Virus record (IMG/VR): IMGVR_UViG_3300025277_002331
Span: 1 to 64,000 of that record
Reading direction: 5' to 3' (one strand)
Length of the DNA: 64,000 nucleotides
From: an uncultured virus (IMG/VR IMGVR_UViG_3300025277_002331)
Lineage: Duplodnaviria > Heunggongvirae > Uroviricota > Caudoviricetes
Every line of letters starts with the position of its first letter. Position 1 is the stretch's first letter. This document shows positions 2-57,079 of the stretch, piece by piece. Below the pieces are notes generated by a model. That model had not been told where the DNA came from and searched no databases. It saw nothing but the letters and a program-made list of their open reading frames with translations. The position numbers and the translations under genes were made by a program.

Positions 2-3000
2 TGGACAGAAAGACAGAGGGAAATACACGAGGTTGGCAATATTACACGAGGGGAACGGTCTGCGGATGTAAATTTAGCCATGGAAGTTGGGCGGCCTAGT
101 TACGGTGAAGACATCTCGGATGAGCTAGGTAAAGAGCGTTACCAGAGAAACGTTAGAATGGCCGGGCGATATGAAGAGCGTTTTAAAGAAGCCGCTAAGC
201 CAATAACATATGGTGGGACTTTATATACTGGGTTTCATTCAAATAGGCTCCAGCTTTTCGGAGAAAGCTTGGGATTGAGCAGGGCAAAAGTGCTTGCAGG
301 AGATGCATTTAGTGCTGGTGATTGGGTGGGTGTTAATCGTGCCAAAGGAAAGACTTTCGGTAAGCAGAGAAAGGAACAAAAGGAGTTAGGGGAAAAAAGG
401 TTCTACGGAAGAACCCAAGAAGGCGCCCCGCCAGAGATGTGGGAAGGCACTCTAAACGACCCCAGAGTGTGGGAGGAGTTAAAGGGAAAAACCGGGATGA
501 TGAGAGGAATTGTTCATACTAGCAAAAGCCAGAAGCAAGCCAGCCGCCAAGATTTTACAATGGACTTTGGTGGTGTTATGGCAATTAGAGGGGCAAGGGG
601 TAAAAAGGGTTTTGACCTAACAGCTAAAGATGCTGGAGGTCGGTATACTGGGAGTCAGCATTATAGTGGTGGTGAACAGGAAATACAATTTCTGGACCCG
701 AAATTTAGAGTCCTGTCAGCGTCGGAGGGTCCAGATTTTAGAGGTAGTCCGGGTCTTAGAGGTAAGGACATCGGCGCAAAAGATACAAATCCTTACATAA
801 AGGCGATAATGCTCAACAGAGGGGGTAGAATAGGGTTCAATGATGGGGGAATGGCGGGAGAACACTACTTTGTTTCTTCAGACTCGGAAGCATTTATATC
901 GTGGAAAGATGTAAATAGCTTTATGCAAGAGATTGCAGCCAGCGACAACAACCCTAAGATAAACTTCGTTGCTGGGCCGTCTGGTGCTGGTAAGAGTTTT
1001 GCAACACGCAATCTGTCCATGATTAAAGACAGGGCAAAGGCTGCTAAAGAGGCGAGGGCGTTTACTTTTGAGTTTGGTGGAACAAAATTTGAAAACATGG
1101 CTGACCTTGTGGGTCGTACCAAGCGTAGTGGCGGTCAGGGGTACTGGATAAAGACATCAGATGAAACAGTTACGTCACAAAGAGCGAGCAGGTTGGCGGC
1201 ACACCAGCCAAGCGCAAGAGACAAAAGACCTATTGGACAAATGAAGGGCGCAAGCAGGGGCGCCCCATTGCCTAGCGACCCCAAAACTACCGGGCTATTA
1301 GCCGAACTGGAGAGGGCGTATCCGGGGCTTAGAAAGGTTACCAGCGAAGAAGTGCAGCTATTGAAGACTGGTGGTATGGCAGAGTTGATTCCAAAGGATA
1401 AGAGACCGTATATGAGCGCTAAGCTCTCTAAGTCTCCTCAAGTGGTTATCGAGCACGCTGGTGAAGAACTGCCGGATGAGGTGGCCGACGAAGCAGGTCT
1501 AATGGCTCGTTTTATGGCCAACGCAACGATGCCTAAAGGTATGAAGAAACGGCCAGCTAATTGGCCTAAGATTGGCGAAGAGTTCCTGAAAATAAGAGGG
1601 ATTGTACAGACAGAAGACCCATATAAGGGGTTTCATATTAGGCAGACTTACCCCATGCAACAAAAGTATAGGGGTCAGGGCTGGGGAACTGGTGGGTACG
1701 CAACATTGGCCAAGATGATGGACTCTAGAGGATTCCCCGGATTTTATAGCGATAGAAGCACCAGCCCTCAAGCAAGCATGGTATGGGACAACCTTCAGAA
1801 ACACTATCCCGACATATTCCCCAACGGAATAAAACTACTTAATCCTGATAGTGTTAATAGATTGAAGGGTATAAGAGAAGATAAAGCTAGAGGTCAGACT
1901 GAAGCGGTTCGCGGGGGAAAATTTAGAGGAATGGCCGGTTCGGACGGTGACCCTGTATTTGGTACTGAGTTCAGAAAAAAGTTTGCAAAAGGTGGCGCGG
2001 CAGGAACAGACACCGTTCCCGCGATGCTGACGCCGGGCGAGTTTGTTATTAACAAGAGGTCTGCTGAATCTATTGGTTATGGCAAGCTCGGTCAAATGAA
2101 TAAGGCTGGTAAGTTTGCTTCAGGCGGTCCTGTTGGTTTTGCTCATTTTAATGATGGTGGACCTGCTGTAGCAGGAATTCCAGCTAGCTCTAGAGGAACC
2201 ATGGAAGTTGGAGCCAATATAGCAATTTTGTCAACTACCCTAATGGGTGTAATAGGGTCAATGGTTAAGCTTGAAGGTCAAACCAAAAGAACTGTTGACA
2301 CGATTACATCGGCAGTTATGCAAATAGGAATAATGACACTAGCGTTTAAGGCTATTGGCGGGTCTATGGGCAATCTTGGTTTGCATATAATAAGAAGTTC
2401 GGCAGTAAGAAAAAGAGCCTTAAAGATAGAAAAGAATTTAATAGAAAGACATCTGGCATTAGGGAAAAGCCTTGAAGAAGCAAAAAAGGCTGCGGATTTA
2501 AGAATGGGTGCTGGGGGTATAACGCCCGCGAAACATCAGGGTCTTTTTGGAGGTGTTAGAAAATTTGGAGGAGAAGCGCCTATAAGAGCAAAGAGGGCAT
2601 TTGGAAGATTTGCAGCAGACCCCAAAGGAGCAATGAGAAGGGGGGCAACGAGTCTGCTAGAGCCGAATGAAAAACTTGCAACCGTAGCCATGACCGTAGC
2701 GGCAGCGGCAATAGCAGGCCTAACTGTTGCTCTTAGCAAGATAGGGGAGCAGTTTGAAAAGGTTAGAGATGCTGCTATAGAAACTGGAAATGCTAGCGAG
2801 GCTGGGTCGGCTGCGGTTGAAGTTTTCAACACACAGATGAAGAAACAAACCGTGATGGCGGCAGCGGTAGCTGGTGCAGCCATAGGAAGCTTACTTGGAC
2901 CTCTTGGAACCGCCGCTGGGGGAATTGCTGGAGCCGCGCTTGGTTCTGGCGGCAGTATGGGGCCAACCAGACGAGACAAACTGGTAGGAAAAGAAAACCC

Positions 3001-6000
3001 TCTAATTGGATGGCTCTTCGGTGAAGGAGCAATGGCGCCAGTGGAACCGGAAAAGGTTCGTAATCCGATAACCGGCGTTAATGAGACGGTGGCTGTTAGG
3101 GGAGCAACCCTTCCAAGAACTTTAGGGGAAGCAATTGTAGATGAGTTTAAAGATACAATGAATTTTGTTCAGCAGCAGCTTGGAATTGCGGGGGCTGGTA
3201 GAGCAATGACGACTCCTGAAAAGGAGGCGCGGGCTAGGGGGGAATCTGAAGCCTTAGCAGATATACAACGAACAGTTTTAGAGTCCAGAAGAGCCGAGCA
3301 AACAGCACAGCAGTTGACGAGTATTGGAGGAGAGCCTGCCCAGAGACAGCTTTTAGGTGCTCAATTAGAAGTTATCAGAAAACAAGAGGTGATTGTTAAT
3401 AAAGTTCTAGCCGAGATTGACAAAATAGATGTAGAAGAAAAGAGAACAAGCACTCTAAAAAAAGCTGAAGATGCACAGAAGAAACAAACTACGGCAACCC
3501 TATCTGGAGTGCAAGCTTTATCGAAATATATTAAGCAGCAGTTGGATGCCGGAAAGACGTTGGGCCAGATAGCAGTTCAGGATATTCGAGGACAAACAGT
3601 TAGTCAGCTTGTTAATCAATATACCAAAGCCTTATCAGACTCTACCAAAGAACTCGGTAAACACGGACTCAAGACGGGTGAAGCTAGAAAGACACAGGGG
3701 GAATTCATAACGCTTATGCTAGACCCGCTGCGTTTATATCAGATAAATGTACTCAGGGCTAGTGAAGCAGTTAGGACGGCAGGAATAGAATTTGATAGAG
3801 TTCAGAAAGAAATTAAGCTTCTAGATGTAGTGCTTTCCAATATAGTAAAAGCCGGTGAGCAGATGCGGATATTCTCTTCCGCAGTTCGAGACTCAATCGC
3901 CATGATTAGTGGAAGGGTGTCCGCAACTGAATTTGTGGGACAAAAAATTGATTTTGGAATGAAGAAGCCTGTTGATGCCCCCTTGCTTAAAGAAGAGTCC
4001 GAGAAGTTAGGCAAGATATTTGGCTTGGAAGACCTGAGCGAGAGATTTGGTAGTGTTATAGACACATTTGATAACTTTGAGACTAAGATTAGAACAGCCT
4101 TTAAGGAGTCTGCGCACTCAGTAATAGATGGAGGAAAAGATTGGAAAACGAGGCTGCTGGGTACACTAGGCGAAACCTTTGGAACCATTAAAGATAAGGA
4201 ACTACGAGAAAATCTGATAGCCAGAGCAAATGAATTAATAGTTAGAGCAACTGAGAAATCCGGTACGCTTGCCCCAAGAGTTGCTCACGATATAAAGCTG
4301 AAACTCTTAAAAGAAGCGGAGCATCTGGTAAGGCCGTTCCAAGAGGCGACAAAGTTTCTAAATAAAGAAGTGGACAGATTTATTAAGGGTTACGCCGCAG
4401 CCCTTAACCAGCAGGTAACTTTTATTAAGAAGGTTTCAGATATAAGTACTCTAGAGCTTAGGGCTAGACAGAGAGTAGCGAAAGCCGAGGCTGGGATTGG
4501 ACCCGGAAGAGAGATGACAATGGCCGAAGCGAAGAGCTTCGGAATAAAAAAGCGAAACGTTCTTCTAGCTGGAACTGGTGCTGCTGGACAAAGTGGAAAT
4601 ATCGGGGCGGTGTTCAATAGGGCTTCGGCTGTTATTTCTCAAATACAGAGACAAAACGCATTGGCCGAAAGGGCGGAATCAAGAGAAACACAACTAATAC
4701 ACAGGAAGAATGCTTTAAATCTAAAGTCTGAGTTTGCAAGACTGAAGCAGACTATTAAGTCTTTTGGTGACGTGGTAGCTCAGGTTCAGGTTATTGAAGA
4801 AAGACTGTCGAAAGTTAGGGGAGAAAGAGAGGCTAGAAGGGGCTTCGTAAAAGACTTTGCTTTTGGTGGCAACCAACAAAGACAGCAAATGTTTATGGCC
4901 CGTCAGGCGGTAATGTTTGCGTCCAGAAATCAAAACGTGAACGTGATTCCAGAGCAGTTTCGTTCGGAAGTTAGAAATCTGCTAGACAGGTTCAGAGATG
5001 TAGCGCTGCCAGAATTTGGTGGAAGAACCGGAGATGAGCTTTCCAAGATTCTAGAAGCCAACTTGATGAGACAGGCTGGAGCCAGCGAGAGAATGATTAA
5101 TGCTGTTCTTCAGGAAATGCCAGAAGAGCGTACCCTAATTAACGAACTTAAGGTCTTAGGATTACAAGAGCAGCAAGCCGCGCTTGCGGGCTTGGCACTA
5201 GAATCAGAACTTCAGGGAGACTTTTTTGACAGAATAAACGGGTGGGCCGACAAGCTGGACTCAATACTTTCGGGAGGTCTTTCGATAGATTTTACTACCG
5301 TGGGAGGAGGAAAGCTTGGTGGAAGACAGCATGGGGGAATTGAGGGAGTAACTCCAAAAAGACGACCGGGACCAAATGATAAGATTCCTATTCTTGTAGC
5401 GCGTGGAGAGGGAATTATATCATCAAAAGATATGGCTCGTCCAGAAGTGGTAGCTTTCCTAAAGGGAGCGGGAGTTTCTGGTTTTCAAGGGGGAGGTCCA
5501 GTAGCTGGTTGGAGAGGGATTGTTAATCAACGGAATCAACATCAACAACAACGGGGTCAGCAGATGAATTCTCTAATGAGAGAATACATCATGAAGGAAA
5601 TGCAGAAAAATGCTAACAAGCAGGCCCAGCTAAGAGGTCAGACGGGTGGAGGAGGAAGAGCACCCATAGGCGGTAGAGACCCCAACCTAGGGTTCGGTTC
5701 TAAAAGAAAGTTTCAAAATTACAGGAAGGGCTTTAATAAGAGAAGGGCGTCAATCGCCAAGGATAGGATGAGATTCTATAACAATCCTCTTCGACAAGGG
5801 CCAATGGCTGGGCAAGCGGGAGTTGGAGACCTTTTCTGGGCAGATAAAGACCCGGCTTCCATGACCCCCAAACAAAGATGGAGGGCTGGTTTTGGAAGTC
5901 AGTCTGGTGGTCGTATTGGTAGTAGTCCTTGGGGTGCACCTCCGGGTGTTACCTCTGATGAACACAAAAGATGGCAACAAACACAAGCCGCTAATGCATT

Positions 6001-9000
6001 GCAAAATCAACACGCCCAGCAAGCAGCCGGTGGTCACGCGCCGCCACGTTCTAGTGTAACCACTCCTAGAACAAGAAGGCTTTTTAAGCACGTAAATCGA
6101 GCCTTAAATAATGGTGATTTGCGAACGGCGCAAAGACACCTAAGAAGAATTCCTGTCAACCATCCGTCACACAACATATATAAGAATCTTGTACAGAAAT
6201 ATCAAGCACAACCCGACCTACTGGAGGATAGGCGGCAAAAGACAGAAGAGAGACGCAATAGAGGCAATAGAGGCAATAGAGGCAAAACGACAACACGTAT
6301 TCCGCTGGTGGGCGCGACTAACGCAAAGCCTCCCAAAAAGCCTGTACAAGTAAGCAAGCAGAAGACAATGGGGCAAAAGTTTTTGGCAACTGGGCTTTGG
6401 AATTTAAAGCCTAACAATAAGGGTGACCTCGAGTTATTTGGTCCGGGCGGTTGGCCACTGACAGAGACACAGTTACAGCAAATTTACGGACTTAAATTAT
6501 CTGATTTTGTTAATTCTGATATTCATATAAAAAGGCAGACAGACAAGGTCGACGCCTCAATGAGAGAGAGTCGTACCACAAAAAGAGTAGAGAAAAAGGC
6601 GCCGCCAACCTCCGAGGAAATTATAGAACAAGCGAAAGTTAGACAGCAGAGAAAGACGGCTGAAGATAAAGCCAAGGCTCAAAGGGCTTATTTAAAGCTA
6701 ACTCAAAGTAAGTGGGTCAAGGAGAATACCGCCAGTCCGGCATCGATGCTGGGCGGCGCCCGAATCGAGGGCGAGAGTTTTGGACGGCAGAGAGTTTCCT
6801 CCATGGTAAAAGACCAGAGTTCTGTAATTCAGGATGACTTGCATGGGTTGGTGAATGTAACACTCAAAAGTAAGGATATGAAAGACGTTCCTGTTGGCGA
6901 CATTGAGAATATAGCTCACGAACAACAGAAAAAGATTGAGTCGACACGGAAGAAGATGCATAAATTTGTTGCTGACACAACGAGGGAGGTGCTGCCGCCA
7001 GAGCTTCAGAAGATGCTAATCGACGAAACCGGCAATCTGAGAACTGCGAATCTTGGTAAGATTAAATATGCAGAGGGTCCAGATGGCAGCGGAAGAATGA
7101 TTCCCACAGAGGGGCATATCAACTCTGCTATTATTAAACAACTGCTGGACGTTCATAAACAGATGGCGGCCGGAATTGAAGCAGGAAAAGACCAAACAAA
7201 ACCCATGAAGCTTAATGAGCTTAGGGAATCCTCTAGGTTAAATATAGCTGAATTAACCAGATATTTTGAACAAGCGTCTCTCGCAGAAGAAAACTTGAGG
7301 GGCATGCAGGGTGCTGCAAAATCTAGTGCTCAAATTAAAAGTTTGAAGGCTCAATTTGAAAAGGAAAAAGGTCTAGTTGGAGTGTTTGGAACCACTGACC
7401 AAAGTGTTGACGAACGCAGCGGTGGAAGTACGGCTGGGCGAGCAATAGACCTTTGGCTTACAAACGTAACTCAAAAAGCGCACAAGGGAGTAGTTGGTGG
7501 AATCGGCATGGTGGGTGGAACGGGAGCAGCGGTTGTGGGGGGCTTGGGGGGACTTGGAATGGACGCGATTAATGCGGCCATTTCTCTCCCTGATACTGTC
7601 TCGTCCTTAGCGAGTGGATATTTTGGTAAGGATGCAATACTTGTTGAAAATATTAGACGGGGGGCGGAAAAAGCCGGAATAAGTGAAAAGAAGTACGCAA
7701 CACAACAAGGCAAACTTGGACTATGGAGAGAGGCTACAGAAAACAGAAACATAGACCTTATGGAAGGTACGAAAAATATAAGGGCTGCGGGTGGAGTTGG
7801 TGCAAGATATGCCTCAGCGTCAGGAAAAGATTTCTTTGATTTTGCTAGGTCGTTTATTCCGGGGCTTGCCACGGGGCCGGAAGCTGGAGTGTATTCAGCA
7901 GCACAAAGAGAATTCAATAAAGACCGAGATTTGATGGCAGAAAGGGCTGAACTAACAGGAAGTGACCTTGACTTGTTAATGAAGCACGCCTTTACTGGTC
8001 TTGGACGCACTAGTGATGTCGCTGGTGAAGGGGCCGCAATGTTTGCAACTGGAGGAAGCGAGAGTCTAAAAGTTGGGGCCGGTTGGGGTTGGCTTCAGAA
8101 ATTAGAGAAAGTAAAACAGGTAAAAGTCTTTCGGAATCTTGTCAATACTGCGAAGGCCAGCAAAGCAGGTAAATTGGCTGGGAAGGGAAGAGCATTAGGG
8201 TCGTCAAAGAAGTACCTTGAGGCTATCAACGCGAATGAAAAAGCAAAAGAGATATTGACTGGTATAGGTGGCGTCGCATTTGATACCGGCATGTTCCTGC
8301 CTCGGGTAGGCGGGGGAATTTTAAAGGCATTAGATGACCCTGAGTTATTCCCAGCGATATTCGATTTAGTGAAGAGCGGCCTGAAGGGCGGCGCGAAGAA
8401 AATAGATGAATCTTGGCTTGGGAATTTGTTAAAGTCAGCGGATTCTGATGCAGACATACTAGCGCAACTTAGAACAGCAACAGCCGCTCCTGCCTCAGAA
8501 GCTGCTGTGACCGCTAGCAGGGGTGCTGCGGCGACCACTGGCAGAGGTGCTGCGGGTATACATGTACCGTTTAGCGGGTCGTTGCCCGGTGCTGCTTTGG
8601 ATGCGACCAAATCAGTTGGGACATTCATTAAAAATGTGACAATGCCATTTCATAGTCCGAAGCGAGCATGGAGAGGCGCTCTTAACTGGATGCAGGAAGG
8701 CATGGATGCAGCGAGACTAGACCTTCCAAGAGGCGGTCTGGAAGCAGCTGTTAAAGCAACTGAAGACATAGTGACTGCTCCAAGAGCCGGAATGCCGGGA
8801 ACAACTGCGGGCGAGAGACTGCTGGCGAATATTTCGGAGGGGTCAGGTTTTGGGGCGAAACTTGATGACATTGGTAGTCTGCTTGCCGAAACGGGGAGCG
8901 GGGCAGATGAGGCGACGAGGTGGGCGCAAATAAGACTTGACGATTTCCTTGAAAACGCCTATAAAGCTAGTGACAATGTAAGTATAGAACAAGCTAGAAA

Positions 9001-11737
9001 ATTTTTAACAGAATTAGAACCGGTTCACAGAAACAAGCTACTCAACCCCCCCGGACACGCTTCCCGGCCCCGGCCTTCGACCCGGCCTTCGACTGCGGTC
9101 CACGGTGCCTCAGCGCCGGGAGGCGTCCCAATAGACTTGACAGCCCCACCGGGAGCGGGCCGACCGTTCACGCCTCAGCCCAAGACCGCGCCCGCGCCTG
9201 TAAAGCCCAAGACCGCGCCCGCGCCTGTAAAGCCCAAGACCGCGCCCGCGACTGTAAAGCCCAAGACCAAGCCCGCGCCCGCGCCTGTCCGCAGCACCGC
9301 AGCAGACAAGACACTGGATGCTTCGCAACAATGGCTGGTATCCGAACAGGCCATGGAGATGATGCGACTGGTTAATACTGGCGACCCAGTAGATGCTAGA
9401 ACAGCCTTGGAAATGCTTAGAACAAATGTCAAAGACACCGGACTTTTCAAGAGTATGGGAGCGCAACTACAAACTAACTATAAGAGAGCAGCAAAGAGTT
9501 TCGTTCCGGTAAAACAAGGAAGGTCTGTAGATTCTCTTGTAACAAACGCACGACAAGTGAGGGATAATGCTTCTGGTATTTCTAAGTCACAGGTTGAGGC
9601 TGATGTACTACAATTATATTCGAGACTTGGCGCTGCTAAGGGAGGTTGGTTAGATAACCCAGTATTACAGAGCCAATTTACTATTAGAGAGCTTGAAACC
9701 CTTGCAAAAGAACTCAATTCGGCTGGTATGGGAAAGCAAGCAGGTTTCTTTAACGACCTTGTAACTAAGATAAAGAATACTAGGGCGAAGCCGACGACTG
9801 CTCCGCCTGTAAAGCCTAAGACGGCGGCGCTGCCGGATGAAGCTTTCACAATGATTGATGAAACTAAAGCCTTAATCCCCGAGCGGTCTGGAGGAGGGAA
9901 GTTCTTCTTAAGAGACCCAAAGACGTTCAACAGAGTAGAGTATAATAGTCTGGCCGAAGCTCAAGCCGCTCTTGAAGAGGGTCGCGCTGTATTTCAAATG
10001 AAGACGCATGGTCGAACAACGGACTTAGCTAACAGAGCGCCCGAACATCTATTAGAGGCGGGACGAAGCTCGGATGATACCGCACAGTTTCTTCAAGCTA
10101 TGAAAGAAAGCGGAGACCCGGACTGGCGAAAGTTCGAAAATGCAGTCAGAAACGCTTCGGTAGGTAGAGAATATCGTGCTCCGGTCGCACACCAATTCCA
10201 TGGAAAGCCGGGTCAGGAGATGCTTAAAGAAATAGAGGGTAGTCTTCAAGGCGGTGGTAAGAATGATTTCATTAAGTTTACTCAGGACTTTGAGAAGACT
10301 TTTGCCGGTGGCGGAAGTTTAAAGGGCGAGCGTCTTACGCACGGCGATGAAGTGACAAGAATTACAGACTACTTGAAAAGGGTGATAGAAAGTGACCCGA
10401 CACTCGGACTTGGTGTCAATGAGGCGGACCTTTTGGTGGGATTTGCAAGGAAGTATCGATTGCCCCCATATCATACAAGAGGGTCGTTTGAGACTGGTAT
10501 ACCATCCAACATACTACCCGAAGGTTTTGAGGGCTTTGCTGCTGGCGGCTGGATTGGCGGAAGGTCGGGAGTAGATAAAAACCTAATTGCTGTAAGTAGA
10601 GGCGAAGTAGTTCTAAATGCTCCACAACAGGCGGCTATTGCTGGCATGGCTGGAGGAACTGTTGGCGGTACGTTTTCTGCGGCTGGCGTTCCCGGTTTTG
10701 GTGGTAATGCCGCCAACACAAGCGGGGCTGCTCAGAGCGGAATGAGGGCGGGGGCGGGGGCGCAAGCCGATGCCCATTCCGCGAGAATCCGCTTCAACCA
10801 ATGGAAAGCATCCGGGTCAACACTTAATTTTGAGGATTGGCAAAAGCAGCAGCACCAGCAGGCGAGCCTACTCCGCGCGCCAAAGCCACAACAGGCTCCC
10901 GCTCAGCCCGCTGCGATGATGCCGCCCGGTCCCCCACTGAAACCCCCGACGAGAAGGTCGTCCATTGCTCCAAGAAGGTCGTCCACTGCTTCTGAGACGA
11001 AATTTCAAGTTGGCATGGGCGCCGGAGAGCAGGGTGTACATGCAACAATTTCGGGTCAAAATGCCGTTAGACAAAGAAAGGGAGAAAGCAACCGCAAATT
11101 TCAACAAAGAGAGAGAGCCAGAGAACATAGAAACGAACAACTTAAATTTGGTTTAGCTAGTCCCAAAACCGATAGAGAAAGAACAATGTTGGGTCTCACC
11201 GGCCAAGGTGGCGCAACGACTTCTCAAAGAAGAGAGGAATACCAGAAGAAATTCCGAGCGGCAAGACAAGGCGGCCTTTCAGCAGAAGAAGCCAAGATGC
11301 AGGCAATGGGAACTGGAAAATCCCAAAAAGTAGGCTGGCCCGGTGCGAATGGACCGGGGGCTGGTGTCGGGGCAAGCGGACAGACTCCCGCTGGTGGACA
11401 AGGTCAGCAAGGTCAGGCCGGTGGACAAAAGATGCCAGACATAGCCGCTTTCAATCAGGCAATGTCTGCACTGGTAGAAAATGTAGGCGATATTGGACAA
11501 TCAATAGCAAGTACTGTTGAAAAACTTTCGGGTTTCACAATGCAGCACGAGCATAATCATTCAGGAACCATAAATATTGGAGGTGTTGATGCCGCCAAGC
11601 AAGCAATTTCGGATGCTATTAAGACCGATATCGTAGATTATGTTAAGGAACAAATCGCAGGCTTGACTATTAATACTAATCAAAATGGACAATCTACTGT
11701 AAGCAACGGCGGCCCAACTCAGAACTCAACCGGATAA
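2..11737 (+). CDS. Giant tail tape-measure-like / polyvalent protein (5'-truncated, >3,900 aa) with ART-like, P-loop kinase and GNAT cargo domains
   Basis: Frame is open from base 2 (WTERQREIH...), so the start lies upstream of the window. TMP-type module FAKGG..GTDTVPAMLTPGEFVIN, Ala/Gly-rich hydrophobic segments (AAAVAGAAIGSLLGPLGTAAGGIAGAALG) and long helical/coiled-coil stretches. Lies directly upstream of tail-like genes. Confidence 0.85.
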   Translation, partial: WTERQREIHEVGNITRGERSADVNLAMEVGRPSYGEDISDELGKERYQRNVRMAGRYEERFKEAAKPITYGGTLYTGFHSNRLQLFGESLGLSRAKVLAGDAFSAGDWVGVNRAKGKTFGKQRKEQKELGEKRFYGRTQEGAPPEMWEGTLNDPRVWEELKGKTGMMRGIVHTSKSQKQASRQDFTMDFGGVMAIRGARGKKGFDLTAKDAGGRYTGSQHYSGGEQEIQFLDPKFRVLSASEGPDFRGSPGLRGKDIGAKDTNPYIKAIMLNRGGRIGFNDGGMAGEHYFVSSDSEAFISWKDVNSFMQEIAASDNNPKINFVAGPSGAGKSFATRNLSMIKDRAKAAKEARAFTFEFGGTKFENMADLVGRTKRSGGQGYWIKTSDETVTSQRASRLAAHQPSARDKRPIGQMKGASRGAPLPSDPKTTGLLAELERAYPGLRKVTSEEVQLLKTGGMAELIPKDKRPYMSAKLSKSPQVVIEHAGEELPDEVADEAGLMARFMANATMPKGMKKRPANWPKIGEEFLKIRGIVQTEDPYKGFHIRQTYPMQQKYRGQGWGTGGYATLAKMMDSRGFPGFYSDRSTSPQASMVWDNLQKHYPDIFPNGIKLLNPDSVNRLKGIREDKARGQTEAVRGGKFRGMAGSDGDPVFGTEFRKKFAKGGAAGTDTVPAMLTPGEFVINKRSAESIGYGKLGQMNKAGKFASGGPVGFAHFNDGGPAVAGIPASSRGTMEVGANIAILSTTLMGVIGSMVKLEGQTKRTVDTITSAVMQIGIMTLAFKAIGGSMGNLGLHIIRSSAVRKRALKIEKNLIERHLALGKSLEEAKKAADLRMGAGGITPAKHQGLFGGVRKFGGEAPIRAKRAFGRFAADPKGAMRRGATSLLEPNEKLATVAMTVAAAAIAGLTVALSKIGEQFEKVRDAAIETGNASEAGSAAVEVFNTQMKKQTVMAAAVAGAAIGSLLGPLGTAAGGIAGAALGSGGSMGPTRRDKLVGKENPLIGWLFGEGAMAPVEPEKVRNPITGVNETVAVRGATLPRTLGEAIVDEFKDTMNFVQQQLGIAGAGRAMTTPEKEARARGESEALADIQRTVLESRRAEQTAQQLTSIGGEPAQRQLLGAQLEVIRKQEVIVNKVLAEIDKIDVEEKRTSTLKKAEDAQKKQTTATLSGVQALSKYIKQQLDAGKTLGQIAVQDIRGQTVSQLVNQYTKALSDSTKELGKHGLKTGEARKTQGEFITLMLDPLRLYQINVLRASEAVRTAGIEFDRVQKEIKLLDVVLSNIVKAGEQMRIFSSAVRDSIAMISGRVSATEFVGQKIDFGMKKPVDAPLLKEESEKLGKIFGLEDLSERFGSVIDTFDNFETKIRTAFKESAHSVIDGGKDWKTRLLGTLGETFGTIKDKELRENLIARANELIVRATEKSGTLAPRVAHDIKLKLLKEAEHLVRPFQEATKFLNKEVDRFIKGYAAALNQQVTFIKKVSDISTLELRARQRVAKAEAGIGPGREMTMAEAKSFGIKKRNVLLAGTGAAGQSGNIGAVFNRASAVISQIQRQNALAERAESRETQLIHRKNALNLKSEFARLKQTIKSFGDVVAQVQVIEERLSKVRGEREARRGFVKDFAFGGNQQRQQMFMARQAVMFASRNQNVNVIPEQFRSEVRNLLDRFRDVALPEFGGRTGDELSKILEANLMRQAGASERMINAVLQEMPEERTLINELKVLGLQEQQAALAGLALESELQGDFFDRINGWADKLDSILSGGLSIDFTTVGGGKLGGRQHGGIEGVTPKRRPGPNDKIPILVARGEGIISSKDMARPEVVAFLKGAGVSGFQGGGPVAGWRGIVNQRNQHQQQRGQQMNSLMREYIMKEMQKNANKQAQLRGQTGGGGRAPIGGRDPNLGFGSKRKFQNYRKGFNKRRASIAKDRMRFYNNPLRQGPMAGQAGVGDLFWADKDPASMTPKQRWRAGFGSQSGGRIGSSPWGAPPGVTSDEHKRWQQTQAANALQNQHAQQAAGGHAPPRSSVTTPRTRRLFKHVNRALNNGDLRTAQRHLRRIPVNHPSHNIYKNLVQKYQAQPDLLEDRRQKTEERRNRGNRGNRGKTTTRIPLVGATNAKPPKKPVQVSKQKTMGQKFLATGLWNLKPNNKGDLELFGPGGWPLTETQLQQIYGLKLSDFVNSDIHIKRQTDKVDASMRESRTTKRVEKKAPPTSEEIIEQAKVRQQRKTAEDKAKAQRAYLKLTQSKWVKENTASPASMLGGARIEGESFGRQRVSSMVKDQSSVIQDDLHGLVNVTLKSKDMKDVPVGDIENIAHEQQKKIESTRKKMHKFVADTTREVLPPELQKMLIDETGNLRTANLGKIKYAEGPDGSGRMIPTEGHINSAIIKQLLDVHKQMAAGIEAGKDQTKPMKLNELRESSRLNIAELTRYFEQASLAEENLRGMQGAAKSSAQIKSLKAQFEKEKGLVGVFGTTDQSVDERSGGSTAGRAIDLWLTNVTQKAHKGVVGGIGMVGGTGAAVVGGLGGLGMDAINAAISLPDTVSSLASGYFGKDAILVENIRRGAEKAGISEKKYATQQGKLGLWREATENRNIDLMEGTKNIRAAGGVGARYASASGKDFFDFARSFIPGLATGPEAGVYSAAQREFNKDRDLMAERAELTGSDLDLLMKHAFTGLGRTSDVAGEGAAMFATGGSESLKVGAGWGWLQKLEKVKQVKVFRNLVNTAKASKAGKLAGKGRALGSSKKYLEAINANEKAKEILTGIGGVAFDTGMFLPRVGGGILKALDDPELFPAIFDLVKSGLKGGAKKIDESWLGNLLKSADSDADILAQLRTATAAPASEAAVTASRGAAATTGRGAAGIHVPFSGSLPGAALDATKSVGTFIKNVTMPFHSPKRAWRGALNWMQEGMDAARLDLPRGGLEAAVKATEDIVTAPRAGMPGTTAGERLLANISEGSGFGAKLDDIGSLLAETGSGADEATRWAQIRLDDFLENAYKASDNVSIEQARKFLTELEPVHRNKLLNPPGHASRPRPSTRPSTAVHGASAPGGVPIDLTAPPGAGRPFTPQPKTAPAPVKPKTAPAPVKPKTAPATVKPKTKPAPAPVRSTAADKTLDASQQWLVSEQAMEMMRLVNTGDPVDARTALEMLRTNVKDTGLFKSMGAQLQTNYKRAAKSFVPVKQGRSVDSLVTNARQVRDNASGISKSQVEADVLQLYSRLGAAKGGWLDNPVLQSQFTIRELETLAKELNSAGMGKQAGFFNDLVTKIKNTRAKPTTAPPVKPKTAALPDEAFTMIDETKALIPERSGGGKFFLRDPKTFNRVEYNSLAEAQAALEEGRAVFQMKTHGRTTDLANRAPEHLLEAGRSSDDTAQFLQAMKESGDPDWRKFENAVRNASVGREYRAPVAHQFHGKPGQEMLKEIEGSLQGGGKNDFIKFTQDFEKTFAGGGSLKGERLTHGDEVTRITDYLKRVIESDPTLGLGVNEADLLVGFARKYRLPPYHTRGSFETGIPSNILPEGFEGFAAGGWIGGRSGVDKNLIAVSRGEVVLNAPQQAAIAGMAGGTVGGTFSAAGVPGFGGNAANTSGAAQSGMRAGAGAQADAHSARIRFNQWKASGSTLNFEDWQKQQHQQASLLRAPKPQQAPAQPAAMMPPGPPLKPPTRRSSIAPRRSSTASETKFQVGMGAGEQGVHATISGQNAVRQRKGESNRKFQQRERAREHRNEQLKFGLASPKTDRERTMLGLTGQGGATTSQRREEYQKKFRAARQGGLSAEEAKMQAMGTGKSQKVGWPGANGPGAGVGASGQTPAGGQGQQGQAGGQKMPDIAAFNQAMSALVENVGDIGQSIASTVEKLSGFTMQHEHNHSGTINIGGVDAAKQAISDAIKTDIVDYVKEQIAGLTINTNQNGQSTVSNGGPTQNSTG
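6255..6285 (+). repeat. 9-bp in-frame tandem repeat (gcaatagag x3.4) encoding NRG repeats
   Basis: Read directly: gcaatagag gcaatagag gcaatagag gcaa. Confidence 0.9.
9177..9288 (+). repeat. 27-bp in-frame tandem repeat (~4 copies) encoding a PKTAPAPVK linker
   Basis: Unit agcccaagaccgcgcccgcgcctgtaa at 9177, 9204, 9231 (one substitution) and a variant at 9258. Confidence 0.95.
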
Positions 11738-12599: not shown

Positions 12600-14357
12600 A
12601 TGGCAGTTCAATATACTAATAGCTCGGGGGCAGCAAGAAAATTAATCCCCGCGCCAATGGCAAACATCTCCAAGGAGTTCACAAAGAATGGGGCTGGAGA
12701 TATAATTGGCTCTGTTTATAACATAACTCTAACTGGGGTAATGTTGTCATTTAGAGGCTCGCCTAGTTGCGACCCAAGCTCTCTTGCAATCACTTGGAAT
12801 CCTGCAACTGATGATTCCCTTGAGGTTCCAGAAGCCAGTCGTCTTGCATGTATACTCAGAAAGCAAGAAGCTATTAGGGAGTTGTTCCGATATACTGGGG
12901 ATAACTATCTACTAGATGCTGATGATGCTACAGGCACAGGAAAGACTACGGGGGATGGCGGTCTTTTAGAAATACAATCGTCTGATGGTTCATCCCCGCT
13001 AAAGTTTGCGGCGAAGGTAGTTGACATTGATTTTGAAGGAGAAGACCCTTCTAGAGTGGGTTGGAACCAGTTGTGCAGGTATACGATTACGCTTGAAGCC
13101 GAAGCAATGATTGGGCCTGATGGAACAGCCCCGGTTATAGAAGACCAGTTTGCTTGGAACATTTCCGATTCAACAGAAAGTTGGGAAATAGCGGAAGAAG
13201 ATGGCCTTAGAGGGATTACACAAGACGGGCCTGAAGCGGTTGACCCGGTGACCGGCGTGATTGTCGACTATAGCCTTATTACGCCAACCAAATCTTTTAC
13301 TGTCACCCATACAGTAAGCGCCGTTGGAAGAAACAAATACGACATAAACAGCCCGACAATCCTAGCAACCAGCGGTATCGCTTGGCAACAGGCTAGGGGG
13401 TATGTGGAGCAGATTCTCAAATATGAAGCATGTCCGGTTGAAGACCTGACAAGGCATCAGCTTAATGCCAAAGGTGTCTTGGATTTAGAGCCGGGATACG
13501 CAAGCAGAAACCACGCAAGAACCCAGCAGATAGATGAAACCACGGGGTCTTTTTCGGTTACAGAGACCTTCGTTTTAAGTACAGCCAACGCAACAGAACA
13601 GGTCGAATGTCAATTAACCACAAGCGCAGAAGATGCCCTCACTAGAGTATCTTTAAATGGTACTATTACTGGACTTAACAGTAATTGTCCAACCGCATCT
13701 GGAATAAATGCATTTGCAAACGCCAGTGGAGTATGGACTGGGATGAGCAGCAATACTATATTGAGAGGCATGGCGGCTAATCTTGGTGGTATAGAAGACG
13801 AAAATACATTAAATATCATTCCTGTCAATAAAACAGTTGGAACAAATCCCAATCAGGGAATAATTACATATACCATAGACTTTGATAACAGGCCACTGGG
13901 ATGTATTCCGGGGGCACTTTCGGAAAATATAAATATACAAGACACAGTGCCGGGATATTTATTCGCAACGATTCCAACAATCGGAAGAAAGAGAGGACCA
14001 ATACTTCAGTGGTTGGGGGCAGCAGATTCTCCTTACGTAAGAAGTCTTTCTCTTGAAGTTGTAGTGCCTCCTAAGACCTATGCAAATTGTGACGTAACCA
14101 CAATTAAAGACGCACTCATTACCGACAAGCCTAGCAATAGAACAACACCGGATGATATGAAAACTGCTATTGACAAGATTATTGACGCAGCAGACCCCAC
14201 AGACGAAACCGGAGTAGAAAATAATAAGGTTTTCTATGCAGCCCCACAAGAAACTTGGGACTATAGAGCAGGAAGATATTCACTTAATATTACTTGGACC
14301 TATGAGAAGAGCCTTACAAATTACCCGACAATCTTCTCGCCAAATATGAATTTCTAG
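12600..14357 (+). CDS. Putative tail structural protein (distal tail/baseplate region)
   Basis: 585 aa Thr/Asp-rich ORF with beta-strand-like character, tightly packed downstream of the TMP; function inferred from position. Confidence 0.5.
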   Translation: MAVQYTNSSGAARKLIPAPMANISKEFTKNGAGDIIGSVYNITLTGVMLSFRGSPSCDPSSLAITWNPATDDSLEVPEASRLACILRKQEAIRELFRYTGDNYLLDADDATGTGKTTGDGGLLEIQSSDGSSPLKFAAKVVDIDFEGEDPSRVGWNQLCRYTITLEAEAMIGPDGTAPVIEDQFAWNISDSTESWEIAEEDGLRGITQDGPEAVDPVTGVIVDYSLITPTKSFTVTHTVSAVGRNKYDINSPTILATSGIAWQQARGYVEQILKYEACPVEDLTRHQLNAKGVLDLEPGYASRNHARTQQIDETTGSFSVTETFVLSTANATEQVECQLTTSAEDALTRVSLNGTITGLNSNCPTASGINAFANASGVWTGMSSNTILRGMAANLGGIEDENTLNIIPVNKTVGTNPNQGIITYTIDFDNRPLGCIPGALSENINIQDTVPGYLFATIPTIGRKRGPILQWLGAADSPYVRSLSLEVVVPPKTYANCDVTTIKDALITDKPSNRTTPDDMKTAIDKIIDAADPTDETGVENNKVFYAAPQETWDYRAGRYSLNITWTYEKSLTNYPTIFSPNMNF

Positions 14358-14360
14358 TAT

Positions 14361-17300
14361 ATGGCTACAACAAATAATCAAACATCAGACGGTTCTCAAA
14401 CCACCTTTCTTGGCGCCACGATAATAGACTTCAATTCTAGTCTGGCGTTTAGAAGTCAGGGTTCGTCTCTACAGATAAATATCGTAGAAGATAAAGCAAA
14501 CGTAAGAACAACTAACGATATATCTTACGGTAATTATAACTTTACTACAGACGGACAGGGCAGGGTAGCAAGCGTAGCCAACGACCCAAATATTCCAAGC
14601 TCATATCCTGCCGGAGATGAGTTCTATTTCCCTGCTCTGGGAAACGCTGTATTTTTTAAGTTTGAAGAGTTTAAGTTTAATGGAATATTGAAATCTGTAG
14701 AAAGAAATATAAGTCCAGCCGGGGGAGTCACTCACACGGTATCGGTTGAAGACGCAACCTCTGTTCTGGATGGAGTTCAGGTCATTCTGGGCGACTACAT
14801 AGGCATGGGAGAGCCAAACTACGGGTGGTCCACCGCCACGTACAACTACTCAAATAGAGGACCAAGCACATTTGAAGGCGGCGCTCTAAACAACCCCACG
14901 TTTAATTTTGGTTCCAGCCCATATCTAAGTTTGGGAATGTGGAACCCCGGCGGGTTCAGCCAAATATTTTATAACGTGATAAATCCATACGGTTATATTG
15001 AACAGTTTTTTGGATTGGGAACTACTAGAACAAACTGGGACGGTACAATTGCTGGCATGGACCAGACCGGCATGAACTGGCTGACCTGTCTTGAAACCGT
15101 AGTAGATGTTATTAACGAAAAGATATGGGGTCCGCATCATCAATTTGGTGGTCCAATCAAATTTGCTGGAAGCAGATTTAGACTTGATATGATTGATTTA
15201 TGGGATTTGTATGTAGATGGTATACTTCCAGTTAACTATAGATTTGGAACTAACAACTCCACTCTTCTTCAGCTTATCTCGGATGTTTGTCAAACTGCTA
15301 GCTGTGACTTTTACTTGACTATTGACAGGATTGGTAGGGAGCAAGATTACGACCCAAGCTCTACTACAAATGAATGGCTTAATAGAATTGGTCCAGCAAT
15401 AGGTAATGGTGTTGCAGATATAAACGATACAGACCCAACGGACGGCGCTCCTATATCTGGAGTCATCAGGGTAAATGTTGTCAGAAGAACAGCCCCTCCA
15501 ACAAGCCTCACTGTCATACAAAATATGATTGAGGAGTTGGTTGGCGCGGGAGACGTGTCTAGAGGTCAAAGAAACCTAGACAGGCCAGACCAGCCGCAAG
15601 AAACTGCCGGTGTTCCGTTCGAGGCAGACGATGTAGTCACCGACTCCGCTGGCGAACTTAAGAGGTTGGTGTCTGCCACTCACGGTAGGGAGCTTTCAGA
15701 CGACCCGATAGGTAAAGTTCTTATCGGGGGTAAACAGTCTCGTATTGCTACAGGAAACTCGATATTTCAAGTATGGGCCACTTCAACAAATTCCGTTGGA
15801 GCATCTCTTAGTGCTACTGGTGTAAACTCTATTAATGATGCCAGCCAAGTCATGGCTCAGGTTCCCGGTGTCGGATTCTATCTGTGTACAGTTAGAGAAA
15901 TGCGACACGCGATGGTTAGCAAAGATGCTTGGGAGGCTTTTATTTGTGCTTGTCGTTCTGGGATACCAAACGCCTTTAATCCCGGCGGAATGAATATAGC
16001 TGGAGCATATAATATTGGCTCAAGTTTTTCTAGAATAACGCCATCTATTCTAGCAAAGCTACAGACAGGTAACCTAACTCCTTTTCTATATAATGCCTTA
16101 ACCAGAATAGAAACAAACATTTCAAATCAGGTGCATGCTGCTCAGTTAAATGAACAAACTGACAAAATTTATAACGCCGTCAGAACTTTGGCTAACGATT
16201 TTTACGGGAAACAATTGGCGGTCCCTCTTCCGTTAATGGTCAAGGGCTACGGGGAAGTTGGGCAAAGGGTAAATGAGTGGGAAATAACCAGCGCTGGCTG
16301 GGTAGAGCCGGGATATATTAACGGACAATATGATGCAAATCTGGTTGATGACAAAGGAAGAGTTAAGGGTTTTGTAACGTACTCTACTTGGAATGATTTT
16401 AGCGAATTTGGAGACGATGACTTTGTGTATCCAAGTGCTGGAAGTGCTACTCTCGTTAACCTAAATATAGATTCAAAAGTTTTTGACGCTGGGATATACA
16501 ACTACGCTCTGGTTAAAGTTGGCAGCACTCCAAAAAGATTTGACATGAACTACAACGGGCTGTGGGAAAGTATGGACCTCGCCTATGGAACATCGCTACA
16601 GTCTCAAGCCTTTACAACAAGCTTTGGCTCTGACAACGGTAAATATACTATAGCCCCTTCTACGGCATACCCGTTTGAATATGGAGTTCCACAAGAATCA
16701 AGGTATCACGTTTACGGTCCTTGGGCCTCTCAGTCCGCTACAATTGGGACGGGGTATGGAAAGATAGACCTAGAGGTTGACAGCGAATTAAAACCAGAAA
16801 ACTTTGCTTCAACGAACATCTTAGATAGCATAGCCTTGGCTAGAGTTTTTGCTAACACTGTAGACGGACAACAGGCCGAAAGGGGAAGCATAACTCTTAC
16901 GGGTGGGCCAACAAGCGGAACCGACCCGCAGATAGACAGCGTTGACTTAGGAACCCAGCTAATCAATGGAGGCCCATATTTAACAGGGCTTAGTGTTAAC
17001 GTAGCAGCAGACCAGATACAAACAACATACCAAATGGCTACTTGGAAAGTTGCTTTTGGCAAGCTCGCTATGTTCAACCAGAAAAAAATTGAAGAGGTGG
17101 TTAACAATAGGAACAAGGCATCTAAAATATTTAGACAACTATTTAAAGTTCCGCCGCCGAATAAATTTTATACCAACATGAAGAACAAGCTGACTCCTCC
17201 AAAGAGGTTTCAGGCTACTACATCACATCCTTACGTTGGAATGCATGCTTATAAGTTTGGTGATTTTGTATATCCTTATGTAGGCTCTTTAGGCAATGAT

Positions 17301-18101
17301 GAGCTAAGGGTTTACTCCCAAAACGATGGAACCAATAAATCCTATGTGGATTGGAGCGCGGTGGTTAGAGGCTTTGGAGCACAAGGCCCGACTGGAAATT
17401 TCCCCGGACACCACAACGGAACTGGGTTTGAGATGGGGGGAGATAACATGTGGCCAACAGCGCAATATCTCAATCACTGGAACTTTGTCGGAGACGAGGC
17501 TGGCCATGATACGGGTGTTGTAAAGAGCAACAACCCGGACCCAACTATTGAAAGGGGTGGATTTGGAGTCAATCAAAAACCTGTGGGATTGCGAGGTCCG
17601 CTGTATCTTGTGGGGTGGGGCTTTGACCTTTGTGCGGACCCAGTCCCCGGAGTTTCCGGTTCTGGTGAAGGTGCAGAAAGAGAGTTTATAGCAAACCATA
17701 GAAGAAAAAGCGATAGCTGGAAGGCTGGCCCAGTTGACCTTAGATGGAACTCAACAACAGAGACTTGGCAACCTCCTCCGCAGATTCTTGAAGGAACATC
17801 AAAGCAAAATAGCTGTGATGGCTCATTTCTGGCTGAGCTAAATGATTGCAATTCAAGAGAAGTTACAGTACAGAACCCTCTCAAGATTCCGGTTAGAATA
17901 AGTTCTAACATTCTCATATGGTCAGACCAAGAAGAAAACAACTACAAGTTGATTCAATCTCAATACCATCTAGAAGAAGACTATGTAGTATGTGACGTTT
18001 CGTGCTGCTCAGACGGAACTTTGGCAGTTTCGCTGAAAGACTTCTATATCCAGTGGCCAGCAGACCCAGAATGTGTCGAGTGTCCAGAGCCAGAATGTTA
18101 G
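14361..18101 (+). CDS. Putative tail tip / baseplate hub protein
   Basis: 1246 aa, third gene after the TMP; Gly/Asn/Thr-rich; hub-like segments (FKFNGILKSVER, TLLQLISDVCQTASCDFY); Cys-rich C-terminus. Confidence 0.55.
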   Translation: MATTNNQTSDGSQTTFLGATIIDFNSSLAFRSQGSSLQINIVEDKANVRTTNDISYGNYNFTTDGQGRVASVANDPNIPSSYPAGDEFYFPALGNAVFFKFEEFKFNGILKSVERNISPAGGVTHTVSVEDATSVLDGVQVILGDYIGMGEPNYGWSTATYNYSNRGPSTFEGGALNNPTFNFGSSPYLSLGMWNPGGFSQIFYNVINPYGYIEQFFGLGTTRTNWDGTIAGMDQTGMNWLTCLETVVDVINEKIWGPHHQFGGPIKFAGSRFRLDMIDLWDLYVDGILPVNYRFGTNNSTLLQLISDVCQTASCDFYLTIDRIGREQDYDPSSTTNEWLNRIGPAIGNGVADINDTDPTDGAPISGVIRVNVVRRTAPPTSLTVIQNMIEELVGAGDVSRGQRNLDRPDQPQETAGVPFEADDVVTDSAGELKRLVSATHGRELSDDPIGKVLIGGKQSRIATGNSIFQVWATSTNSVGASLSATGVNSINDASQVMAQVPGVGFYLCTVREMRHAMVSKDAWEAFICACRSGIPNAFNPGGMNIAGAYNIGSSFSRITPSILAKLQTGNLTPFLYNALTRIETNISNQVHAAQLNEQTDKIYNAVRTLANDFYGKQLAVPLPLMVKGYGEVGQRVNEWEITSAGWVEPGYINGQYDANLVDDKGRVKGFVTYSTWNDFSEFGDDDFVYPSAGSATLVNLNIDSKVFDAGIYNYALVKVGSTPKRFDMNYNGLWESMDLAYGTSLQSQAFTTSFGSDNGKYTIAPSTAYPFEYGVPQESRYHVYGPWASQSATIGTGYGKIDLEVDSELKPENFASTNILDSIALARVFANTVDGQQAERGSITLTGGPTSGTDPQIDSVDLGTQLINGGPYLTGLSVNVAADQIQTTYQMATWKVAFGKLAMFNQKKIEEVVNNRNKASKIFRQLFKVPPPNKFYTNMKNKLTPPKRFQATTSHPYVGMHAYKFGDFVYPYVGSLGNDELRVYSQNDGTNKSYVDWSAVVRGFGAQGPTGNFPGHHNGTGFEMGGDNMWPTAQYLNHWNFVGDEAGHDTGVVKSNNPDPTIERGGFGVNQKPVGLRGPLYLVGWGFDLCADPVPGVSGSGEGAEREFIANHRRKSDSWKAGPVDLRWNSTTETWQPPPQILEGTSKQNSCDGSFLAELNDCNSREVTVQNPLKIPVRISSNILIWSDQEENNYKLIQSQYHLEEDYVVCDVSCCSDGTLAVSLKDFYIQWPADPECVECPEPEC

Positions 18102-53783: not shown

Positions 53784-54447
53784 CTGCAAAAGCCTTTTCA
53801 AATTGTGTTTTAGGTGCTAACGCCCTGTGAAACTTCAAAAATCTTATCATTATATTTGCAGTATCTTTAACATCCTTTAGAGCATCATGGGAACCCTCTT
53901 TATCTATCCCCATATAGTCTCTCATTGAATCCATGCTTATAGACTTTACGTCTGGATTATTTTCCATCCAAACCCAAACTAGGTCCATTACGTCTAGTTT
54001 GTATGCTTTATTAAAGAGTTTTTGCCCGCCAGTTTTATCATCTCTAGGACCATATTGCTGACACATTCTATTAACTATTGGCATATCAAAGCCGTTTATG
54101 TTATACCCAGCAGGTATTGGCGCATAGAAAGAAGTTTTTTTAAAGTTGTACTTATTAACAAAATCTGAGAACTTCCCCCACACCTGTTTGGGATGGGGGG
54201 CTTTGGCCAAAGACTCCCTGTCCTTGTGTGTGATTGCCAGAGCCTCTTCCTCTAGGGGGTCAAGACCAGATTCAATAGCTTCGTCATCGTCAATTATGGG
54301 TCTGATTTCACTATTGAAATATCCACCCGGTTGTACGGTTAGCTTTCTTCCATGAATAGCTACCGCAGCTATTTGTGTAGGCTGTGTCTTGTGTGGGTTT
54401 CTGCTTCCTGTTTCAAAATCAAAAACAATTATGTCTCTGTAATTCAT
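53764..54447 (-). CDS. DEDDh 3'-5' exonuclease (DnaQ/epsilon-like)
   Basis: FDFETG, GYNINGFD, HDALKD. Confidence 0.85.
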   Translation of the reverse strand: MNYRDIIVFDFETGSRNPHKTQPTQIAAVAIHGRKLTVQPGGYFNSEIRPIIDDDEAIESGLDPLEEEALAITHKDRESLAKAPHPKQVWGKFSDFVNKYNFKKTSFYAPIPAGYNINGFDMPIVNRMCQQYGPRDDKTGGQKLFNKAYKLDVMDLVWVWMENNPDVKSISMDSMRDYMGIDKEGSHDALKDVKDTANIMIRFLKFHRALAPKTQFEKAFADGKSYI

Positions 54448-55150: not shown

Positions 55151-55153
55151 TAA

Positions 55154-57076: not shown

Positions 57077-57079
57077 GGC

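What the first reader, a model, noticed from the sequence alone, without database searches (positions are those of the whole stretch)
2..2161. Tape-measure protein built as an effector polyprotein: enzyme domains delimited by [F/L]xxGG linkers
Seen: the N-terminal visible part of the TMP-like ORF reads ART-like domain (2-810) / LNRGG-FNDGG (812-850) / P-loop kinase (851-1360) / LKTGG (1361-1375) / GNAT (1376-1981) / FAKGG (1982), TMP module, FASGG (2114), FNDGG (2147), then the hydrophobic/helical TMP core. Each enzymatic domain is bounded by the same di-glycine motif. Established: TMPs are ejected on infection and are often proteolytically processed; ART, GNAT and kinase domains are typical phage host-takeover or counter-defence effectors (T4 Alt/Mod; phage polyvalent proteins). 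Inference: the tail ruler doubles as a delivery cassette of modifying enzymes, and xxGG marks processing sites or recombination joints for cargo swapping.
Basis: partly seen in the sequence, partly recalled or inferred. Interest (0 to 1): 0.9.

Follow-up and report, generated by a model that had tools for sequence, protein, structure and literature searches.

The report
Phage tail ruler carrying swappable enzymes
The giant tail 'ruler' protein of an uncultured marine phage carries three enzyme-like domains separated by a short Gly-Gly joint, and related phages gain, lose and reorder such domains at that joint, so the ruler probably also delivers enzymes into the host cell.

Summary
Observation largely confirmed. 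The ORF (2-11737, at least 3,911 aa, cut by the contig start) is a tape measure protein (TMP). All listed xxGG motifs lie where stated; a seventh (FEFGG, 1067) is inside the P-loop domain and is not a joint. The segments are internal, not N-terminal: full-length relatives begin with a PF10145 TMP domain. Segment 3 models as a GNAT. Segment 1 is a divergent PF03496-type ART fold that keeps E-x-E but lacks the canonical Arg. Segment 2 is a small P-loop domain; 'kinase' is inferred. Relatives gain, lose, duplicate and reorder whole cassettes at the motif (159 of 401 homology breakpoints within 10 residues; 8.7% expected). The GNAT was recently exchanged between co-occurring phages (pS 0.08, against 0.49-0.85 in the flanks), but DNA breakpoints lie near the motif, not on it. 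Cleavage and delivery are untested. The T5 TMP cut falls just before an AxGG, and lambda gpH carries the same module. This scan noted the architecture before on other DNA; the ART/GNAT effector-type cargo is added here. Eight literature searches found no description. Host unknown.

The parts
2..11737 (+). Giant tape measure protein, at least 3,911 aa, 5' end missing
   Evidence: orthologues P0003, P0004 and P0055 with PF10145; PHROG TMP hits to the module
2..811 (+). Cassette 1: divergent PF03496/Alt-type ADP-ribosyltransferase fold; its N-terminal joint is not in the window. Strand 1 LYTG (221-232, canonical Arg absent), HTS (515-523), EQE (674-682)
   Evidence: HMM of 11 ART cassettes of relatives scores aa 152-275 at 26.5 bits, best of 500 shuffles 5.0; Atlas 0.94 to PF03496 clusters but below its recognition threshold; single-sequence fold failed
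812..850 (+). Tandem joint LNRGG-RIG-FNDGG
   Evidence: the tandem form is common in the family, 9-residue spacing 94 times
851..1360 (+). Cassette 2: ~170-aa P-loop domain, probably a small kinase; Walker A GPSGAGKS at 974-997; R397 invariant in 12 of 12 rows; internal FEFGG (1067-1081) is not a joint
   Evidence: PDB, Pfam and T4 PseT matches cover little beyond Walker A
1361..1375 (+). Joint LKTGG
   Evidence: FADGG in P0003 and LKDGG in P0055 at the same end of the P-loop cassette
1376..1981 (+). Cassette 3: GNAT-fold acetyltransferase, motif A RGQGWG at 1670-1687; core 1511-1968 recently exchanged with an L081-type phage
1982..2161 (+). Conserved TMP module FAKGG...DTVPAMLTPGEFV...FASGG...FNDGG
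   Evidence: 79 bits to the family module HMM; matches 134 phage records, mostly annotated TMPs among the 40 shown; lambda gpH 730-797 scores 29.8 bits
2162..5362 (+). TMP core, with hydrophobic stretches starting at aa 891 and 950
   Evidence: 32-37% identical to P0003 and P0004
5363..5551 (+). Degenerate second module copy ending in FQGGG
   Evidence: 1.9 bits, weak
10529..10636 (+). Degenerate C-terminal module copy (FAAGG...RGEVV)
   Evidence: -0.2 bits, weak; same position as the lambda gpH module
12600..18101 (+). Two downstream genes conserved behind the TMP in relatives (585 and 1,246 aa); probably tail tip proteins (inferred from position)
   Evidence: homologues in 19 and 14 of the L001-L160 loci; no Pfam or PHROG hit

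Best explanation
This is a TMP of a large uncultured, probably long-tailed phage clade. It has a variable cargo bay between a conserved N-terminal domain and the membrane-active core. The bay holds domain-sized cassettes (ART, P-loop, GNAT, and others in relatives), each bounded by a [F/L/Y]xxGG joint, often doubled as xxGG-xIQK-[FLY]AxGG. Shown: the folds (GNAT well, ART by profile, P-loop by motif), cassette gain, loss, duplication and reordering at the joints, and recent exchange of the GNAT between co-occurring phages. Inferred: the cassettes are packed unfolded in the tail tube and ejected after the pore-forming core, just ahead of the DNA (0.7). They then refold in the host and modify host or defence proteins, as T4 Alt and polyvalent proteins do. 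The joint is a protein-level signal, most likely a maturation cut placed just before AxGG as in T5 pb2 (about 0.5), so a cassette is viable only when inserted with its joint. Exchange is by ordinary homologous or microhomology recombination filtered by selection for whole domains.
For: Different orders with boundaries at the motif: window ART-PL-GNAT; P0003 c1-PL-c3-ART-ART-GNAT-c7; P0060 c1-PL-GNAT-c3-ART-GNAT; L081 c1-GNAT-c3-ART-GNAT-c7; P0056 GNAT-ART; P0057 ART-PL; P0058/59 c1-PL. P0060 and L081 are 81-91% identical in three blocks and differ by one whole P-loop and one whole c7 cassette, both bounded by motifs. 159 of 401 internal homology breakpoints lie within 10 aa of a motif, against 8.7% at random (max 13.7% in 2,000 draws). 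All 10 PF03496 matches found in cargo end 0-40 aa before a motif. P0005 has three tandem P-loop cassettes, each closed by a motif. GNAT core against L081: pS 0.084, dN/dS 1.2, while module pS is 0.49 and core pS 0.85; run X1 holds both phage types, sharing GNAT sequence. The 92-residue T5 pb2C (PMC12617516) starts at A1128-E-G-G, one of only five GG in 1,219 aa. Lambda gpH has the module in the Gly-rich region where it is cut; a cut before A734 gives 12.5 kDa against ~14 kDa reported. The TMP N-terminus touches the DNA in DT57C (PMC10713586).
Against: No experiment on cleavage, packaging or activity. The T5 site has Arg where the family has F/L/Y, and the module HMM does not recognise pb2 (1.3 bits). 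The lambda site is unknown. No protease was found in the window's TMP, and a zincin HExxH occurs in only 7 of 152 cargo regions. The ART lacks the canonical Arg (as do 14 of 15 cassette rows), has HTS for STS, and MAFFT aligns its E-x-E two residues off, so it may be inactive or an NADase. dN/dS near 1 in the GNAT, from 8.5 synonymous changes, fits relaxed selection as well as an arms race. The motif is short: 109 of 264 interior matches are expected by chance, and BLAST ends are drawn to conserved GG. 198 of 401 breakpoints are more than 20 aa from a motif. Most relatives carry little cargo (median 336 aa; ART 20, P-loop 20, GNAT 14 of 152).
Confidence: 0.58

Rival explanations
1. The cassettes are ejected but never cut. 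The joint and module are a structural or chaperone-binding element that lets domains thread through the tube and refold, and the enzymes act tethered to the membrane-inserted TMP.
For: No protease found. N4 virion RNA polymerase is packaged unprocessed (PMC5512222). The module occurs in many ordinary TMPs without cargo. Only T5 and lambda TMPs are known to be cut inside mature particles (PMC12617516).
Against: The one mapped TMP cut lies directly before an AxGG. Near-invariant GG with a preferred aromatic or Leu three residues before and Q[KR] upstream looks like a recognition site more than a flexible linker.
Confidence: 0.25
2. The cassettes are cut out during tail assembly and act in the producer cell late in infection, or they are decaying passengers that mainly set tail length.
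For: Lambda gpH is cut during assembly and half of the gpHC copies may be lost. ART motifs are degenerate. GNAT dN/dS is about 1.2. Complete TMPs range from 1,484 to 5,109 aa among 70 loci.
Against: Older GNAT pairs show purifying selection (dN/dS 0.26-0.29). Walker A, motif A and E-x-E are kept across distant relatives. Internal excision would break the ruler before it is read.
Confidence: 0.12
3. The motif is the imprint of a DNA recombination site used by a cassette-shuffling recombinase.
For: Indels are bounded by the motif.
Against: Codons under 22 motif matches of the window and L081 vary freely, including both Gly third positions. The exchanged GNAT tract runs 1388-1425 and 1511-1968, ending near, not on, the motifs.
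Confidence: 0.05

Closest known systems
Phage polyvalent proteins (Iyer et al. 2017, PMC5512222; passages read)
   Same: Several unrelated conflict enzymes in one virion-linked polypeptide; ART next to GNAT; zincin peptidase in some relatives; proposed processing and injection.
   Different: Described carriers are head, MuF, N4 RNA polymerase or conjugation proteins; 'tape' occurs 0 times in the text. No repeated joint motif was seen in the passages read. The window's TMP has no MPTase.
T5 pb2 and lambda gpH (bioRxiv 10.1101/2022.09.20.507954; PMC12617516; passages read)
   Same: TMPs cut during assembly; the T5 cut separates a muralytic domain and precedes AEGG; gpH holds the same FAxGG...GEFV...YAxGG module.
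   Different: One cut near the C-terminus and a periplasmic cargo. Here there are many joints, internal cassettes, and enzymes whose substrates (NAD+, acetyl-CoA, ATP) are cytoplasmic.
T4 Alt (PF03496-type ART)
   Same: The family ART profile matches Alt 378-603 (16.2 bits, E 7e-7 in a two-sequence search); injected with the DNA.
   Different: Alt is a head protein and keeps the first-strand Arg; the TMP cassettes have Ser, Thr or His there in 14 of 15 rows.
MuF and other polymorphic toxins (search listing and passages only)
   Same: Virion protein fused to exchangeable enzyme domains.
   Different: One C-terminal toxin with an immunity gene (recalled); here several internal cassettes and no small gene behind the TMP.

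Membership tests
Tape measure protein (PF10145 type) | TMP domain or homology to TMPs | tested here: met
   Orthologues carry PF10145 above cut-off; the window itself lacks that part because the contig is cut
Tape measure protein (PF10145 type) | Position after tail tube and chaperone genes and before tail tip genes | tested here: inconclusive
   Upstream genes of L081 are conserved in 100-152 of 160 loci for six of them, but none has a Pfam or PHROG hit; roles inferred from order
Tape measure protein (PF10145 type) | Sets tail length and is ejected | not testable with these tools
   No isolate; putative tail tube has no match among 50,697 phage records
PF03496 / Alt-VIP2 ART (R-S-E class) | Fold or profile match | tested here: met
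   Transitive only: family HMM 26.5 bits against 5.0 for shuffles; no direct Pfam hit; fold job failed
PF03496 / Alt-VIP2 ART (R-S-E class) | Arg on strand 1 | tested here: not met
   LYTG; an Arg six residues later is common in the family and may substitute (inferred)
PF03496 / Alt-VIP2 ART (R-S-E class) | S-T-S and E-x-E motifs | tested here: inconclusive
   HTS; EQE aligned by HMMER but shifted by two in MAFFT
GNAT superfamily | GNAT fold | tested here: met
GNAT superfamily | Motif A R/Q-x-x-G-x-G/A (pattern recalled) | tested here: met
   RGQGWG before helix 104-118 of the model
P-loop kinase | Walker A after the first strand | tested here: met
   GPSGAGKS; G, G, K invariant in 12 of 12 rows
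P-loop kinase | Kinase topology, lid and substrate site | tested here: inconclusive
   Invariant R397; matches to PDB, Pfam and PseT cover little beyond Walker A; not folded
Polyvalent proteins | 2-15 diverse conflict domains in one phage polypeptide | tested here: met
   Three in the window; more in L054, L135, L040
Polyvalent proteins | Head, MuF or RNAP carrier, or hub domains such as MPTase | tested here: not met
   Carrier is a TMP; the only HExxH in the window protein is the non-zincin C-terminal HEHNH; the missing N-terminal part could not be seen
Proteolytically matured TMP (T5/lambda type) | Cleavage in the virion | not testable with these tools
   Sequence resemblance of the site only

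The most novel reading that the evidence does not exclude
AxGG marks a general, so far unrecognised maturation site of tape measure proteins (the T5 and lambda cut). This phage clade has multiplied it to turn the ruler into a polyprotein magazine that injects several free cytoplasmic effectors ahead of the DNA, including an Arg-less ART subfamily, with cassettes traded between co-occurring phages under arms-race selection.
Probability: 0.38. Interest if true: 0.9.

Novelty: new variant of a known kind. Interest (0 to 1): 0.72.

Why it matters
It would add a second route, the tail lumen, to head-packaged effectors for getting enzymes into a cell before any phage gene is expressed. It makes an old open question testable: the site and enzyme of lambda gpH cleavage are stated to be unknown (PMC12617516), and the module predicts a cut at F733|A734. 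Natural cassette swapping also predicts tail lengths that change by about 25-30 nm per cassette (0.156 nm per residue from lambda, 132.7 nm over 853 aa). The cargo bays are a source of candidate counter-defence enzymes.

Tried and rejected
Direct Pfam and PHROG scans gave no significant ART or GNAT hit. The single-sequence fold of the ART segment failed (pLDDT 36.7) and was not searched. One search is circular (the alignment holds the query) and is not used. No stand-alone GNAT relatives of 94-335 aa were found among 2,007 candidates. Viral-contig scans with single proteins found nothing; the GNAT profile gave one 25-residue match, L161, not followed. The missing 5' end was not recovered: no terminal repeat, no exact match in viral contigs, and L159 starts 3 bp earlier. 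Host: hits in genome contigs fall in bins of unrelated phyla and archaea, so they give no host. No RNA holder was listed. The module has no match among solved structures. The weak muramidase match (E 0.003, aa ~2208-2296) is below cut-off and not accepted. FTWGG/FYTGG in relatives start a HIGH nucleotidyltransferase and are not joints. No complex was predicted, as no binding claim is made. Literature: searches listed no paper on enzyme cassettes or this motif in TMPs. The 19 papers were seen as listings only; most subscription journals are not in the library.

Full report
Observation. The window starts inside a 3,911-aa open frame (2-11737) at the very start of a single 119-kb phage contig (DNA polymerase, primase, helicase and sigma genes). 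One match was left out, FEFGG at nt 1067, inside the P-loop segment. Two other assemblies confirm the sequence (L159; run X1), and the X1 contig shows that the DNA goes on for at least 1,092 bp upstream.

What the protein is. A search with aa 1-660 among proteins of 2,151-6,845 aa gave one hit, P0003 (5,376 aa, PF10145 and PF03496). A search with the core gave 37 proteins, 32 with PF10145. A profile of 11 of these fetched 160 loci (the best 80 of 600 and the best 80 of 517). The family plan is: N-terminal PF10145 domain (~450 aa), module 1 (FAxGG...D-x-V-P-A-M-L-x-P-G-E-F-V...xxGG), variable bay, module 2, core, often further modules. Among 152 non-redundant bays the length runs from 120 to 2,601 aa, median 336. 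Dropped before counting: 12 redundant regions; five removed by hand (L159, L076, L158, P0040, L068); proteins lacking the N-terminal motif or first module; and long truncated ones without a second module, except L037. The set includes truncated bays, the window itself and fragments found with the window as query, so the counts are not frequencies for the clade.

Boundaries and swapping. Cassette order differs among close relatives while boundaries stay at the motif. P0060 and L081 align in three blocks of 81-91% identity and differ by a whole P-loop cassette and a whole unknown cassette. Of 401 internal homology breakpoints, 159 lie within 10 aa and 203 within 20 aa of a motif, against 8.7% and 15.9% at random. 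The breakpoints are not independent, BLAST ends are attracted by conserved GG, and about 109 of 264 interior matches are chance. The joint consensus is xxGG-x-[IV]-Q-[KR]-[FLY]-A-x-G-G-x-V. ART, P-loop and GNAT cassettes occur in 20, 20 and 14 of 152 bays, all three in four (window, P0003, P0060, L054).

DNA level. The GNAT core is 90% identical to L081 over 458 bp (pS 0.084), while the module has pS 0.49 and the core start 0.85. Run X1 holds both phage types, with shared sequence collapsed at 1798-1900 and loose ends that read as the L081-type flanks at 1388 and 1968. Run X15 has a P-loop cassette with a different upstream neighbour from 863. So cassettes move between co-occurring phages. The shared tract ends 14 nt before FAKGG and is broken at 1426-1510, and the motif codons vary. 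The constraint is on the protein, not on a DNA site. dN/dS is 1.2 for the recent pair (8.5 synonymous, 36.5 non-synonymous changes) and 0.26-0.29 for older pairs; this does not separate positive from relaxed selection.

Mechanism. T5 and lambda TMPs are cut in the virion (PMC12617516; bioRxiv 2022.09.20.507954; passages). The T5 site is given in a supplementary figure that I could not see. Taking the 92-residue length from PMC12617516, pb2C starts at A1128-E-G-G; the 42 modelled residues from T1085 end at P1126, in agreement. Lambda gpH carries the module at 730-797 (29.8 bits) in the Gly-rich region where it is cut at an unknown site; a cut before A734 gives 12.5 kDa against ~14 kDa reported. 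The T5 lead came from earlier findings of this scan and was checked here. Against: T5 has Arg at the aromatic position, the module HMM misses pb2, and no protease is identified. The TMP N-terminus contacts the DNA in DT57C (PMC10713586), so cassettes between it and the core would leave the tail after the channel-forming part and before the genome. That order fits cytoplasmic delivery; it is inferred.

Comparison and novelty. It works like a polyvalent protein (PMC5512222, passages), but the carrier is the tail ruler; 'tape' does not occur in that paper or in PMC9503650, and occurs once, without cargo, in PMC7824862. PMC10034513 (passages) added only that the TMP fills the tube. Eight searches found no description. 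The scan has reported the jointed TMP before on other DNA. Added here are ART and GNAT cargo, an exact cassette indel pair and DNA evidence of recent exchange. Verdict: a real, new variant of a known kind; interest 0.72.

Noticed in passing
L054, L135, L040 cargo bays (e.g. L135:5589-13394): Further cassette types between joints: zincin HExxH peptidase-like (7 of 152 bays), P-loop followed by HIGH nucleotidyltransferase and a HAD-like DFDDT motif, a protein-kinase-like segment in L040, and a second GNAT type. Labels other than the HIGH-NTase Pfam hint are from recalled motifs.
   Followed up: partly
first cassette after module 1 in relatives, e.g. L081:11591-12346: A PD-(D/E)xK nuclease-like pattern (G..E...D...D.K) matches 87 of 149 bays by a loose regular expression, without a control; no Pfam hit. 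It may be the ancestral cargo.
   Followed up: partly
window 9177-9277 against L159: An 81-bp indel in the PAPVKPKT repeat of the TMP distinguishes two otherwise 99.9% identical assemblies.
   Followed up: no
window 5552-10528: A second variable, low-complexity region between two degenerate module copies; weak muramidase hint at aa ~2208-2296.
   Followed up: partly
window 20136-50665: Dense run of glycosyltransferase, methyltransferase and sugar epimerase genes on both strands.
   Followed up: no
window 52134-57079: DNA polymerase (PHROG 405) split into two ORFs with an exonuclease gene and an unknown gene between them.
   Followed up: no
L164:9486-13342 (G000 about 72.5-76.3 kb): Two trypsin-like serine protease genes outside the tail module; possible but unsupported candidates for TMP processing.
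   Followed up: no
L165:2432-9834 and L166:592-3595: Metabolic genes: class III aminotransferase, amidinotransferase-like, aldehyde dehydrogenase, class I aldolase, proline dehydrogenase, enoyl-CoA hydratase.
   Followed up: no
P0005 aa 1210-1763: Three tandem, nearly identical P-loop cassettes, each closed by a joint.
   Followed up: partly
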